A stretch of DNA of 64,000 nucleotides from Ruditapes philippinarum (taxonomy: Eukaryota), in contig NW_026859562.1 of NCBI RefSeq assembly GCF_026571515.1, forward strand, positions 372,001 to 436,000, written 5' to 3'. Made by a program: the position numbers and the translations under genes. Positions within the stretch are counted from its first letter, which is position 1. Each line of letters begins with the position of its first letter. Of the stretch, positions 18,901 through 32,100 are shown piece after piece. The notes below the pieces were generated by a model. It was not told where the DNA came from, made no database searches, and saw only the letters and a list, made by a program, of their open reading frames with translations.

Positions 18901-21085
18901 AAATTAGGGTTATGTCGTCTGCTAACATGTAAACTCAACTGACTCCTACTCCTAAAAACAATAAAATCAAATACGTATGTTAAAAGATCACATTTTGATT
19001 AATTTGAAAAAAATAATCAGACAAAGTTTTATGTAAATTAAAAAGTCTTTTCCATTTCAAAACTACAAATTTTCATATACCTAATTATGAACCAAGTCAC
19101 AAAGAAAAATAAATTTCAATATGTGATATATGATGAATAAAATCATATACCAATAAATAATTGTCAATACATGTTTTGTTTTATTTGGCTTCTTCAGTTG
19201 ACTTATAAATAACAAAGGAAATACAGTCATATACACTCATTTAACAAACAAGATCTTAAGGAATTTCAAATTTCAATTTCATCATTGAAAAAGCTACTCA
19301 AATTCAAACAGAACAAATAGAAAACCTACCGTAAAATTCCTATTAAATGCCCCCGGGGGCTAAACATTTTCCAAAAGGGGGGCTATTATTACAACACGTT
19401 TTTCCTAAATCCAAAAATCATTGAAAATACATTTAGTGTAACATGGGTTGGTAATAACATTAAAATGTGTTAAGATTTTAAAGTTCATGTGATACATTTT
19501 TGTGTTTACTATGAAATAAAATGGATTCTGAAGGATTTGAATAAAATTACGGATTTATTAAAGAGTTCACCACTCATGAGCAGATTTTTTTCCATATCAA
19601 AAAGCCTGGGGGGGGGCTTTTATTAGGGGAGGGGCGTTTATTAGGAATTTTACGGTATACATAAATAGATTTACCTAAAGTAAGTTCCGCAATCTTTGCA
19701 TTCAAACATTTTTTCACCTGTATGCATAGTTATGTGATCTTGAAGATTTTGTGTTGATGACAAATGTTTTTTACATATATGACACTCATACTTCTCACGA
19801 AGATGAATTTTCCGATGTTTCGATATTTCTGCTTCAGTAACAAACGCTTCATCACAATATCTACATTTATAATTCTTTTCTAGAGGATGTTCTTGAAGGC
19901 AATGGCGTTTTACATGTAAGCTGTTTTGGAAATACTTGTTACAATATTTACATTGTATAGGAGGTTTTTTTGTTTCTAAATAATCTTCCTTCTTGACCTT
20001 TCTTTTTCTATTTTTTATTGCATCTTTTTTATTTGACTTTAATATCTGTTTTTTCCTTGCTCCTTTTTGTTTTCTCTCCTTCACCTTATTCTTTAATGAT
20101 TTAGAATTTAAACTTTTCATATTCTTTATCATGTTTTTAACTAATTTGTTGGTGTTGTCAATATCTTTCTGACCCTCAGAGGATACATATTCATCATCAT
20201 TAGAATCCGGGAACCAAGGATTGGATCCCTCATCTGTATCTCCTGAATAAGGATCATCCGGTGTCAATATTGGAACTTTCACATCATTGTCTAAACCTTC
20301 ATTTTTGGAAATTTCACCATTATCAACATTTAGCTGGGACTCAGATGTCTCTACCTTAACAGTAACAGACACCTCATCATCTCCTACCTCGCTTTCCATT
20401 TCTGTGTAATCCTGTCTGTTCAAGGTATCTGTCAGAATTTCCTCAGTTTGAGTCTCTGTGCATACAAGGTTAAATGTCTTACCAACACACTCCAAATCAG
20501 TTTGAGTTTCATGGCAAGTGGTGTCATATTTCGGGAAAGCTGTACGTGTACGATGATCATAATGGTACGAGCCTCCAGGTGTGTGCAGCTGAAGATGTTC
20601 ATGTAGCTGCCAAATCATTGGATACAAAGCAGAACATCCTCCACAGTGAAACATGCAGTCAACACCATAAGGTAATGAGGATCTTAGATCTGTAAAGTAT
20701 GTTAAAATAATGAAAAAAATGTCATATTACATGTACTGTACAAGTGGTTAATTTTGCGGCGTGGAAATATTTGTGAATTGAAATTATTCGCAGATATTTG
20801 ATCACGCAAAAATAATTCCTTCTAAGGCAAACTTTCTTCTATCATTTGAACACGTTGAAGAAGAAATAGAATATATATACATGTAGCAGTAAAAATATTC
20901 AAATATATATATAACATGGCATCATATATAATTTTTGATGGCCACGCTAAAAGTAAGTACACTTATTTATGTTTACAGAATAAAAGTGTATATATACCTT
21001 GAGCTACTTCATTCTGATAAGCTGTTCTTGGTGCTGGTATTGGAAGCCTCCAATCTAATCTATATCCAGCTTGACTTGGATCCAT
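12983..21085 (-). CDS. C2H2 zinc-finger protein A (~662 aa; 1 N-terminal finger plus a 10-finger array)
   Basis: Coding exons (minus): 21085-20998, 20689-19675, 18951-18824, 16639-16437, 14522-14367, 13381-12983. All GT-AG, phases 1,2,1,0,0, total 1989 nt, open. HTGEKPF linkers, acidic and Lys-rich central region. The start may lie further upstream because the frame is open to the acceptor at 21099. Confidence 0.9.
13396..13632. mobile_element. Palindromic MITE (~237 bp hairpin)
   Basis: Arms tgagc..catgacaaaaccaacata..ccagcatggatccagaccagcctgcgca mirrored by tgcgcaggctggtctggatccatgctgg..tatgttggttttg..gctca. A second copy lies at 36261-36448. Confidence 0.85.
14858..16020. mobile_element. 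Non-autonomous element with a ~150-bp terminal hairpin and short subterminal inverted repeats
   Basis: Hairpin 14871-15020 centred on gagtggcgtagccacgag. tttattttatgct (15027) is inverted as agcataaaataaa (16009). Confidence 0.6.
16868..17173. mobile_element. TTAA-flanked MITE (Kolobok-like termini)
   Basis: ttaa|agctgcatgcctccagat ... atctggaggcgtgttgct|t ttaa. Confidence 0.6.
17354..18705 (+). mobile_element. Helentron/HINE-like non-autonomous element carrying ~7 tandem ~146-bp repeats
   Basis: Begins aactagaac. Repeated core aaagggcaataactctgtaattagtcaagatggagttatggttcttgtgcactgcac, then a (gacc)n microsatellite and a terminal cccc..ttcg..ggggta hairpin. Confidence 0.75.
19329..19655. 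mobile_element. Tc1/mariner-type MITE
   Basis: TA|ccgtaaaattcctattaaatgcccc ... ggggcgtttattaggaattttacgg|TA. Confidence 0.8.
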
Positions 21086-21486
21086 TAATGCTGCCTTCAC
21101 TAAAGAAAATATATATAATGCTTAAAATTGAGCACAAAATTAATCTAATTAAACAAATTGGTGTCAATCTGCCACCAAATTACGCCTGTCAAATTAAAAT
21201 GCTCAGTGTTATAATAGTAAGCACTTGGATCACAATCTCTCAATGCATGATGACTGAATGATCAGTACTGTACTCACATTAAAAAATATATTAACTGACC
21301 TATGACCTATGTGTATGACCTTAAACTTGGTCAAATTGACCTGAATAGACTCACTGCGGGAATAAAAATATTTTGGTTTATTCCAAGTTAATCAGGGAGT
21401 ACAAACCCTAACAGTCACAGCTCAATATGATGACTAATCTATTGTGTCCAGTAGTGCTCTGTGAAGCTATAACTGTTTGTTTTTTT

Positions 21487-29138: not shown

Positions 29139-32100
29139 ATGGAAAATTTTCAGAACAACCTTTCTTATGTGTCTTACAGTCAAGACTTTGGGAAAACATC
29201 CCAGGCTGATGGATACATGATGTTAGCAAATAGAAATTCAAGTCTATCTGAATCACAAGTGCTGACTTCTGAGAAATCTCCGGTATTTTCATTTCATTCA
29301 ATGTATCAACCAAGTGGCCTTCAGGCGGAATCAGTTCATCAACAAGATTGTATAAAGTATAGTGACAAGGAGTTTGGTGCATCTACAAATGCTGGTAGAG
29401 CTGTGGGCTTAGATATGACTAATAAAAATGTTTCTGTAAATATGGATCTCAACAGTCAAACTAGTGGCTTTGAGTCAAAGATAAGGTCATTAGATGTTAG
29501 TAATCCATTAACATCAAGTACACAAGTAACTTCATCATATTCTAACAGTGGCATGTCAGGAAATATTCAAATACAAAACTATGGTAACAGTGTTGTCAAT
29601 ATGTCAACAGCAAATATAAGCAATGACACAAAAGATAACTCTTTATCATTCGGTTTACATACTTTCAATAGGAGTTATGTTCCCTGTGAGGAGAAACCCA
29701 GTATTGATTATATGTATAGATGTGGTGGCTGTGAACAGAGTTTTTACACAATATGTAAATTGCATGCTCATATTAAAACACATAATGGAAATGGGTCCTA
29801 TTATTTTTCTGAATCTACCAAGACAGCTTATCCAAAGTTTGTTACTGATAGTAGAGGCACACAAACAGGCCATGGTACACGTCATACAAAATATTCAAAA
29901 GTTAAAGAAATAGACTTTGAAGAAAATAGTAATGCCATTGTTAATAGTAATTCCAAAGACACTAGTTCATTAAGAGTGGATACAGAAAACATGGCAAGAA
30001 ATGTTGTAAACTTAGCAAGTGAAGGTGAACCAGAAATTAAGATTGAGAAAGAAGATCCCGACTGTGTCCCTGATATAAATAGAATTAATAAATCAGGTAG
30101 CGATACTGATGATTATAAACCCGAGGAATCCTTAATTTTAAATGGAAAGAAAAAACAAAAGGTTTCTAAAAGGAAACATCGTAATAAAAGTAAAGTAACA
30201 ACAAAAGGAAGTAAAAAACTGAAAAAATTGAAAATGACTATCAGATTGAAACAAGAGGTAAGAAAGGAAAAAAGGGTATCTTTCTTAAAGAAAGATAGAA
30301 AAACAAAGGCAAGCAGTAATATGACAGTTAAAAGAAAGAAAACAGATGAAAAGATAACATGTAAGCTGTGTAAAGAGGATTTTACAAAAAGATTGTTTTT
30401 ACGACATCACATAAAGTCAAAACACTCAGATGTTGAATATTTATGCCAGTTATGTGGTGAACAGTTTACAGTGGATGAGGATTTAATTGAACACAGAAAA
30501 ACTGTCCATAACCGTGGCTTCCATCAATGTGAGCTGTGTGACAAGGTCTTGTCTACAAAAGGAATGCTGGAAGGTCATTATCTTGTACACAAGGGAATCA
30601 AACCTTTTGCATGTGAAATCTGTGTTCCAAAGAAAGAATTTACAAGAAAATGCCAGCTAAAGGTAAAATAATTTATATAGATATGCAGTAATATTAATAC
30701 TTCAGTAAAACAGATGTTATTCATCATAAATGTTTTATTGAGTTTCAGGAACATTTCCTTGCATTGATTTAAATACATGTATAGTATAATTTTAGAAACA
30801 AATTATGTTGCTTTGTTTATATAATGGCTTTATTGCATTCGCAAGGCTTCTTTAAGTATTCAAAATTCAAGTTTTATTCATAGCAAACCAGAAGGTCAAT
30901 GACCCATGTGGCAAAATGTATAATACAAATTTATACAAATATGGCAGTATACATAATAGTATGGTTAATAATGATGAGAGAGGCATACAAGCAAAGATGC
31001 TTTTCTCTCCTGAAAGAATTTAGTCTCTGTAATTTTTAAGACACTGTAGATAAGAAAGAGATAGTTTAACCTTAACTCATACACCCCAGAGGCTGCTTCG
31101 TTATATGAAATTTAAGGAAGAAGTGATTGACACAGGTGCTTTTATAAATAAAAGTATTTGATAGTAAATTATTGGAAAAGGTAAAGAAAAATAAAGTTTC
31201 CTTTTAAAAGGAAAGGCTTGCTCAGTGTGTCATCATCCCTTCCCTTTAAATTGTGGATTTTTTTCTTGTTTCAATTTATTATCACATTTTTTTTTTTAAT
31301 TACACATGTACGGTATTTGTATATCATAAAGGGTTTATATAGTTTTTTTCTCGAAAAGAAAAAGAGTTTCACTTTTAAAGGGATAGGTAGGGTAAGCCCA
31401 AGACTGGATGAGCACCTGTGCCCATTTGTTTGAGCACCAGTGGTTATGCGTAAATAGGGACCAGAAGTCCACTGTTTATAACTGAACGGGAACATGCTGA
31501 CGATAACAGTTGCAACTTTTTTTGTAAAAATGAATATTTTTTGTCAAAAACGATTCGAAATCTATTCTCTATTAAAATAATCAATCGTAAAAATACTAAC
31601 ATTGGCTCTCACGTGGAGATCAATCTATCGTACTGAAGGACATTTCATTTCCACTTTTTTCGCAGAGAGTCATTCGTTTTGGCAGTTGCTAATTTCATTT
31701 CTAAGTGAATGCACTAAAAGACTTCGTTACGTGGTACCAATTAATAAGCACGTATCAACTATGTTACACCTCAAATATCTATGGACAGGAGATCAGCACG
31801 TGGTAAGGTTAATGATATGCATGGGCTATTTTTAGATTACCTTTAAACTATGTCAGTAGATCTTAATATAACTTGACCATGCACTAATATTCTGCGTGAT
31901 TCGGTCACAATATTTTGGTAAGCATGACCGCCCTTTGGAGACGGAATAATACTACAGTAACCATTCTCTATTTTATAACACTAATAAAGACAAAAACCAA
32001 TTATAAAAGAAACTAACTTTCGCGTCTTGAAAAAGAATTGAAACGGAATCATGTAAAAATATAGAACAAGCTGGGATTTCCAAAGTAACTAAAATAGCTT

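What the first reader, a model, noticed from the sequence alone, without database searches (positions are those of the whole stretch)
20430..29870. Shared unnamed module (isolated C2H2 + GSY..TA[FY]PK + TQT) in both zinc-finger paralogs
Seen: protein A (20654-20430) has DCMFHCGGCSALYPMIWQLHEHLQLHTPGGSYHYDHRTRTAFPKYDTTCHETQTD...CTETQTE. Protein B (29706-29870) has [55 protein letters not shown]. This ~55-aa block is conserved while the surrounding sequence is unalignable, and it lies ~170 aa upstream of the finger array. Known: TQT is the dynein light chain LC8/DYNLL anchor motif, which the zinc-finger factor ASCIZ/ATMIN uses for dimerisation and regulation. Lineage-specific C2H2 families often carry N-terminal effector domains (KRAB, ZAD, SCAN). 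Inference: this may be a lineage-specific effector/dimerisation domain defining an LC8-regulated zinc-finger family, possibly targeting TEs.
Basis: partly seen in the sequence, partly recalled or inferred. Interest (0 to 1): 0.7.

Follow-up and report, generated by a model that had tools for sequence, protein, structure and literature searches.

The report
Clam zinc-finger domain with LC8 anchor
Two neighbouring clam gene-regulator genes carry a small protein module, for which I found no description, that is shared by about a hundred related zinc-finger proteins and ends in a short motif predicted to let the hub protein LC8 clip two copies together, likely giving clams their own counterpart to the accessory domains of insect and vertebrate zinc-finger families.

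Summary
The block is real. Two spliced, head-to-head genes (A, 662 aa; B, 772 aa, identical to Ruditapes philippinarum XP_060604177.1) each carry one copy, 166-184 aa before a ten-finger array. A profile search found it in 96 of the best 150 hits. Of 114 carriers in hand, 103 are non-redundant; every named one is a neoheterodont clam (five genera). Each protein has one copy, upstream of the array where an array is present. AlphaFold2 predicts a C2H2 finger plus beta-hairpin, with no Pfam or PDB match beyond the finger, then an unfolded tail. The tail's Gln is 97% conserved, a [TSVI]Q[TV] anchor stands in 87 of 103, and B's motif nearly equals the published optimal LC8 peptide. LC8 binding is therefore likely but untested; 45 of 103 have a disfavoured aromatic at -2. 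New here: an upstream HxC in 43 of 102, only where the finger helix keeps a Cys, hints at a second zinc site (not significant after tree correction; absent from A). Transposon targeting is unsupported: A's 40 DNA-contact residues are unchanged in two orthologs. Verdict: an undescribed clam accessory domain with a built-in LC8-type anchor.

The parts
12983..21085 (-). Gene A, 662 aa, six coding exons (21085-20998, 20689-19675, 18951-18824, 16639-16437, 14522-14367, 13381-12983): module, linker, ten fingers
   Evidence: open frame with five GT-AG introns; 77% identical to Mercenaria XP_045208138; spliced contigs from three runs match four exons directly
20583..20645 (-). A: isolated CGGC C2H2 finger (aa 45-65); helix carries Trp where 79% of the family has Cys
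20529..20573 (-). A: GSY..T.TAFPK segment, the predicted beta-hairpin
   Evidence: family conservation; hairpin predicted for B and P0071, inferred for A by alignment
20496..20519 (-). A: first LC8-type motif (TCHETQTD, Gln at 20504-20502)
   Evidence: rules in PMC6607443 section 9
20442..20465 (-). A: second, detached LC8-type motif (VCTETQTE, Gln at 20450-20448)
   Evidence: kept in all five A-clade proteins A, P0003, P0004, P0011, P0018
29139..34874 (+). Gene B, 772 aa, five coding exons (29139-30662, 32435-32540, 33111-33217, 33698-33844, 34440-34874): 190-aa N-terminal stretch, module, linker, ten fingers
   Evidence: 772/772 identical to R. philippinarum XP_060604177.1; GT-AG joints at introns 1-3 in contigs of three runs and one contig holding all five exons
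29685..29687 (+). B: upstream Cys183, candidate ligand of a second zinc site (B has no full HxC)
   Evidence: a Cys at a similar place in the B-like relatives listed; role inferred
29721..29783 (+). B: isolated CGGC C2H2 finger (aa 195-215) with extra helix Cys206 and His209
   Evidence: pLDDT 94-95
29793..29837 (+). B: GSY..T.TAYPK beta-hairpin
   Evidence: strands at model residues 35-38 and 43-46, pLDDT 90-93
29847..29870 (+). B: LC8-type motif (DSRGTQTG, Gln at 29862-29864)
   Evidence: 6 of 8 residues equal the phage-display optimum VSRGTQTE quoted in PMC6607443; coil at pLDDT 66
30360..30662 (+). B: start of the finger array (continues in exons 2-5)

Best explanation
This is the conserved accessory module of a multi-gene family of clam C2H2 zinc-finger proteins: a predicted small folded domain (one finger plus a beta-hairpin) followed by a TQT-type motif that likely binds the LC8/DYNLL dimer and would thereby pair two chains. 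Shown: the family, the single copy per protein, its place upstream of a long linker and a finger array, the conservation pattern, and splicing of both genes. Predicted: the finger-hairpin fold and an unfolded tail. Inferred, step by step: (1) LC8 binds one tail in each of its two grooves, so two chains lie parallel; (2) because the anchor Gln sits exactly 10 residues after the hairpin's Pro in 103 of 103 sequences, the two small domains would be held side by side at a fixed distance from LC8, forming a paired docking surface for a cofactor or for each other; (3) the two arrays, on flexible 108-534 aa linkers, could then bind two DNA sites, as homo- or, since the motif is shared, heterodimers between paralogs. 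Gene A's second motif would add a second LC8 dimer. The genes behave like stable regulators with fixed targets, not like fast-evolving transposon sensors.
For: Family: 96 of best 150 hits carry the whole module; module scores 56 bits or more against at most 25 for ordinary fingers; 94 of 114 carriers have fingers only downstream, 18 have no array in the record, 2 have a finger upstream. Motif, in 103 non-redundant sequences: Gln 97%, TQT 59, [TSVI]Q[TV] 87; of the 87, none has Pro at -5..+1 and 59 have D/E/P at +2; position -4 is C/S/D/T/N in 99 of 103. These are the preferences given in PMC6607443 section 9. In the 26-row clade that holds A and B (98/91 support): TQT 22, anchor 25, aromatic at -2 only 1, K/R/H at -3 14, D/E at +2 20. 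Background [TSVI]Q[TV] rate outside the module is 74 in 42,410 sites. A detached second copy with the same flanks is kept in 5 of 5 A-clade proteins, as expected of a self-contained linear motif. Two AlphaFold2 models leave the tail as coil at pLDDT 66 while the core is 90-95 (B) or 72-87 (P0071). Drosophila ASCIZ peptides ending ETQT bind at 7-14 uM and one with Tyr at -2 at 15 uM (PMC5963919 Table 2). LC8 dimerises partners in parallel (PMC5963919; Panoramix, PMC7861614).
Against: No binding was measured or modelled with LC8. Many TQT peptides do not bind LC8 (PMC6607443). 45 of 103 members have Phe/Tyr/Trp at -2, absent from that paper's tight binders; only 43 of 103 pass all my flank filters; 16 of 103 lack a standard anchor. 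B has Gly at +2. The invariant spacing and the 71% Cys at -4 fit a structural strand equally well. Monomer models cannot show a strand that folds only in a complex. No target DNA or cofactor is identified.
Confidence: 0.58

Rival explanations
1. The module is a self-associating, two-zinc domain. A second zinc is held by the helix Cys and His (CxxH) plus an upstream HxC or the Cys at -4, within one chain or as a clasp between two; the xQT strand is part of that structure and resembles an LC8 motif only secondarily.
For: Helix His 97% and helix Cys 79% conserved although neither is a canonical finger ligand. HxC within 40 aa upstream in 43 of 102 (shuffle mean 5.3, max 14; 8 of 805 background windows), in 43 of 82 with the helix Cys and 0 of 20 without. 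Fixed spacing in 103 of 103. Aromatic -2 in 45 of 103.
Against: After tree correction only 4 independent pairs stand on supported branches; HxC never goes the other way but the test is not significant. The link between helix Cys and -4 Cys rests mostly on one clade. A lacks the helix Cys and HxC and B lacks HxC and the -4 Cys, yet both keep TQT. The P0071 model gives the HxC block pLDDT 61 and the tail 66. The A clade's second motif stands 18-23 residues away from the domain.
Confidence: 0.2
2. The finger-hairpin is a cofactor-docking module (as the lone N-terminal finger of CLAMP binds MSL2), and LC8 binding only tunes activity or localisation, as reported for ASCIZ and TRPS1, rather than making a functional dimer.
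For: The folded core is more strictly conserved than the anchor threonines. CLAMP's single N-terminal C2H2 binds MSL2 and is not needed for its dimerisation (PMC8998743). ASCIZ activity falls as LC8 occupancy rises (PMC5963919); a reference title says LC8 suppresses TRPS1 repression (paper not read).
Against: No cofactor is identified. The fixed distance between domain and anchor suggests a geometric coupling that a purely modulatory site would not need.
Confidence: 0.14
3. A KRAB/FiNZ-like repressor family that tracks transposons in an arms race, with the module recruiting silencing machinery.
For: Same overall layout as KRAB- and FiNZ-ZNFs (PMC10547256). One clade looks locally expanded: four members share a contig length of 737,404 and two share 5,709,540. 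LC8 serves transposon silencing in Drosophila PICTS.
Against: Gene A: 40/40 contact residues identical in P0003 and P0004; B-like relatives 9/12, 9/12, 7/12. The tree shows many deep, slowly changing subfamilies. Mercenaria shows only five named genes among my look-ups, against about 700 FiNZ genes in zebrafish; my count is a lower bound.
Confidence: 0.08

Closest known systems
Lineage-specific accessory domains of C2H2 array proteins: ZAD (insects), KRAB and SCAN (tetrapods), FiNZ (cyprinids)
   Same: One conserved domain upstream of a variable linker and a C-terminal finger array, in a multi-gene family seen in one lineage (PMC10547256 and PMC8998743 passages).
   Different: No match to those Pfam models among the families shown. 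The domain is itself a modified finger, often lies 100-450 aa inside the protein, ends in an LC8-type motif, and the family looks small and stable.
ASCIZ/ATMIN (ZNF822)
   Same: Zinc-finger transcription factor with TQT motifs; A's ETQT motifs resemble ASCIZ QT1 and QT2.
   Different: Drosophila ASCIZ has N-terminal fingers and seven motifs in a C-terminal disordered region; here one or two motifs sit directly behind a folded module, upstream of the array.
Panoramix/PICTS and other LC8-dimerised partners
   Same: One or two conserved TQT sites through which LC8 could pair two chains in parallel.
   Different: Panoramix is not a DNA-binding array protein; binding is measured there and only inferred here.
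CLAMP N-terminal C2H2 finger (PDB 7nf9)
   Same: Single isolated finger far upstream of the array, used for protein contact.
   Different: Only a weak finger-level match (profile positions 3-31, E 0.063); no hairpin or TQT match.

Membership tests
C2H2 tandem-array zinc-finger proteins | tandem C2H2 fingers | tested here: met
   ten array fingers each in A and B; zf-C2H2 above cut-off
LC8/DYNLL partner | TQT-type anchor | tested here: met
   A two, B one; 87 of 103 family members
LC8/DYNLL partner | flanks: polar or small -4, large -3, no aromatic -2, no Pro, D/E/P at +2 | tested here: inconclusive
   A's first motif fits; B fits except Gly at +2; 43 of 103 pass all my filters, 45 have aromatic -2. 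LC8Pred itself was not run.
LC8/DYNLL partner | motif in a disordered segment | tested here: inconclusive
   coil at pLDDT 66 in two monomer models; composition is disorder-like; prediction only, and the motif starts about five residues after the fold
LC8/DYNLL partner | measured binding that depends on the anchor | not testable with these tools
   needs ITC or pull-down
ASCIZ/ATMIN | N-terminal fingers and many C-terminal LC8 motifs | tested here: not met
   reverse order; 1-2 motifs against seven in dASCIZ
KRAB / ZAD / SCAN / BTB zinc-finger proteins | the respective Pfam domain | tested here: not met
   none on the module-bearing exons of A and B or among the 25 of 34 families shown for 72 modules
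FiNZ zinc-finger proteins | 28-aa acidic N-terminal domain on its own exon, cyprinid fish | tested here: not met
   module is about 55 aa, Cys/His-based and shares an exon with the first array fingers; no direct profile comparison was made
Transposon-tracking (arms-race) zinc-finger families | fast change at DNA-contact residues | tested here: not met
   40/40 identical for gene A in two orthologs; tested fully for A only, on three fingers for B
Transposon-tracking (arms-race) zinc-finger families | hundreds of young, species-specific copies | tested here: inconclusive
   no genome was held; five named Mercenaria genes and one locally expanded clade
Known fold of the whole module | structural match over finger plus hairpin | tested here: inconclusive
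   no Foldseek match at E 0.001 or better; best VIA Z 3.9, rmsd 2.0, 43 aligned, a designed miniprotein

The most novel reading that the evidence does not exclude
Clams evolved their own family-defining zinc-finger accessory domain that outsources dimerisation to LC8: a modified two-zinc finger-hairpin welded at fixed distance to an LC8 anchor, so that a dozen or more paralogs form an LC8-gated homo- and heterodimer network, with zinc at the second site able to compete with LC8 for the -4 Cys. It would be a family-wide use of LC8 by a transcription-factor family, for which I found no precedent in my searches.
Probability: 0.25. Interest if true: 0.8.

Novelty: new variant of a known kind. Interest (0 to 1): 0.6.

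Why it matters
Molluscs have hundreds to thousands of C2H2 array genes (PMC10547256), and my searches found no accessory domain described for bivalve ones. This gives one, with a clean profile (56 bits or more against 25 or less) that can re-annotate genes now labelled 'ZFP2-like', 'zinc finger protein 678-like' and so on. It also gives a cheap test, LC8 binding with TQT>AAA controls, of whether a whole transcription-factor family dimerises through LC8, which bears on how widely LC8-driven pairing is used in animal gene regulation, a question raised for Panoramix.

Tried and rejected
No whole genome was held, so no per-genome count. Word-based searches with single modules gave 2 of 13 and 2 of 6 candidates and with the 72-row alignment 20 of 2,187: too insensitive to set the taxonomic limit. 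ESM Atlas gave only generic finger clusters twice. PDB sequence searches matched only the finger part (best 60 of 103 and of 176 shown). NCBIfam: one weak zinc-ribbon hit in 72. Fold searches found nothing clear, which does not show a new fold. Complex prediction of P0071 residues 1-88, two copies with four zincs: no answer, score 0.00, alignment not used, own fold uncertain; it is not evidence either way. No LC8 complex was modelled because no LC8 sequence was at hand from a tool. Metagenome scan: 1 locus of 90 candidate stretches, which on translation is not a member; the viral collection was not scanned. Run search: no holder on record as RNA; expression rests on spliced contigs. Covariation of helix Cys with -4 Cys: Fisher p 0.002 but driven by one clade, rejected as evidence. 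Earlier scan notes: nothing by sequence or words. Ten look-ups aimed at divergent members returned no names.
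Full report
Observation. Both peptides are present. B matches the stated coordinates; A runs 20660-20442. I built gene models from GT-AG introns: A, minus strand, six coding exons, 662 aa; B, plus strand, five coding exons, 772 aa; start codons 8 kb apart, head to head. B is 772/772 identical to Ruditapes philippinarum XP_060604177.1 and A is 77% identical to a Mercenaria protein. 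Contigs from three runs carry the exons without the introns; these runs are only guessed to be RNA, but the joints fall at my splice sites. Each gene has one isolated finger and a ten-finger array whose fifth finger is C2HC with a shared phase-1 intron. The two subfamilies are sisters in one tree at 95/77 support, not starred, and unresolved within an 18-row group in another, so an old inverted duplication is plausible, not shown. The part after the finger is 12/29 identical against a maximum of 10 in 121,992 control window pairs.

It is a family domain. A five-sequence profile run over 1.84 billion cluster representatives listed its best 150 of 1,026 hits at E 0.001; 96 of the 150 match the whole module, the rest are ordinary arrays. 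Hits below rank 150 were not seen. With a 72-sequence profile, 114 of the 170 proteins then in hand carry the module at 56 bits or more, ordinary fingers reach 25, and no protein has two copies. Of the 114, 94 have fingers only downstream, 18 have no array in the record (many are short and may be partial), and 2 have an upstream finger and lack the anchor. Linkers are 108-534 aa, median 230, in the 84 non-redundant proteins with an array. Consensus over 103 non-redundant sequences: [YF]xCG[GAS]CxxxFxTICxLHxHxxxHxxGGSYx[YF]DxxxxTA[FY]PK[YF]DxxCxxTQT[DE]. No Pfam family covers the part after the finger, nor does any PDB sequence among those shown.

Range. I looked up 24 proteins: 8 clusters bore species names, and one search added one. 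All nine are Ruditapes, Mercenaria, Mactra, Mya or Dreissena. Four of these species are Neoheterodontei by look-up; Mercenaria as a venerid is from my own knowledge. No mussel, oyster, scallop or other animal appeared, but most members are unnamed and weaker hits were unseen, so restriction to these clams is likely, not shown. Mercenaria has at least five genes on three contigs by length. One clade has four members on contigs of one length, probably a local cluster.

Structure. AlphaFold2 with 72 sequences predicts for B a finger followed by a beta-hairpin, pLDDT 90-95 to model residue 50, and coil at 66 over the TQT tail. A second member with an aromatic at -2 gives the same picture at lower confidence. 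Fold searches give no clear match.

The motif. In 103 sequences the Gln is 97% conserved and 10 residues after the hairpin Pro in all 103; TQT occurs in 59 and [TSVI]Q[TV] in 87; +2 is D/E/P in 59 of the 87; -4 is C/S/D/T/N in 99. These match the position rules in PMC6607443 (section 9 read whole; passages). B's DSRGTQTG equals the optimum VSRGTQTE quoted there at 6 of 8 positions. Against: 45 of 103 have an aromatic at -2, which that paper did not see among tight binders, and it stresses that many TQT peptides do not bind. An ASCIZ peptide with Tyr at -2 still binds at 15 uM (PMC5963919 Table 2). The aromatic is nearly absent from the clade holding A and B (1 of 26) and common outside it (44 of 77). 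All five A-clade proteins have a second motif 18-23 residues further on.

An HxC stands within 40 residues upstream in 43 of 102 members (one truncated row dropped), against a shuffle mean of 5.3, and only where the finger helix keeps an extra Cys: 43 of 82 against 0 of 20. With the 97% conserved extra His this would make a second C2H2 ligand set. The helix Cys changes seven times on the tree; only four independent pairs stand on supported branches and the test is not significant (81 rows with two or more fingers; one search had one pair). A has neither HxC nor the helix Cys; B has the helix Cys and His and one upstream Cys. It is a lead, not a result.

Mechanism. I commit to LC8-driven pairing (0.58). 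[quoted passage not shown] The fixed spacing would hold two finger-hairpin domains together as a docking surface, with the arrays free on long linkers. Binding, pairing, cofactor and targets are all inferred. Rivals: a self-associating two-zinc domain (0.20); a CLAMP-like docking finger merely tuned by LC8 (0.14; PMC8998743 passages); an arms-race repressor (0.08). The last is weakened by 40/40 identical contact residues between A and two orthologs, and 9/12, 9/12, 7/12 for B-like relatives on three fingers, while A and B share 10/40 and so probably read different sites.

Comparison and novelty. It works like ZAD, KRAB, SCAN or FiNZ in layout (PMC10547256 passages) but is a member of none by the tests listed, and it is not ASCIZ. 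Nine paper searches (listings and abstract starts) showed no description of this domain or family. The library lacks most subscription papers, I opened no supplements, and InterPro was not available, so an entry there or in a genome paper's supplement is possible. PMC11592408 lists zf-C2H2 among expanded Manila clam families without detail (one passage). PMC12057147 was seen as outline, abstract and four passages. Rapali 2011 and Kaiser 2003 were seen only as cited. Verdict: real, undescribed as far as I could search, a new variant of a known kind; interest 0.6.

Noticed in passing
P0046, P0144: Two relatives have HxC, the finger-hairpin and an extra upstream finger but no QT anchor: a natural anchor-less variant, or an outgroup form.
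   Followed up: partly
window 19960-20440 (-) and 29870-30360 (+): The linker is acidic in its first half and basic in its second (net -18/+15 in A, -7/+26 in B); the second half is more basic in 54 of 84 family members. The basic part may hold a nuclear localisation signal.
   Followed up: partly
window 13385-13643: MITE-like palindrome (114-nt arms, 89% complementary) in the last intron of gene A, with very high read depth, so a high-copy repeat.
   Followed up: no
window 17548-18597, 23927-24889, 35100-35914: Tandem repeats of 146/157, 173 and 162 bp; the first family recurs at 26013-26291.
   Followed up: no
window 11157-11285 and 22661-22789: A 129-nt element present twice at 92% identity, on either side of gene A.
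   Followed up: no
window about 27450-27533: One contig that covers B from 29075 also shows differences at 27530-27533, suggesting a 5' non-coding exon of B.
   Followed up: no
window 48022-48579 (+): ORF with a weak match to DNA primase large subunit (E 0.0005, below cut-off); another 198-aa ORF at 53770-54366 has no clear family.
   Followed up: no
P0114, P0163, P0165, P0167; P0149, P0168: A clade that lost the helix Cys and has Asp/Glu at -4 appears locally expanded (shared contig lengths); the best place to look for fast evolution.
   Followed up: partly
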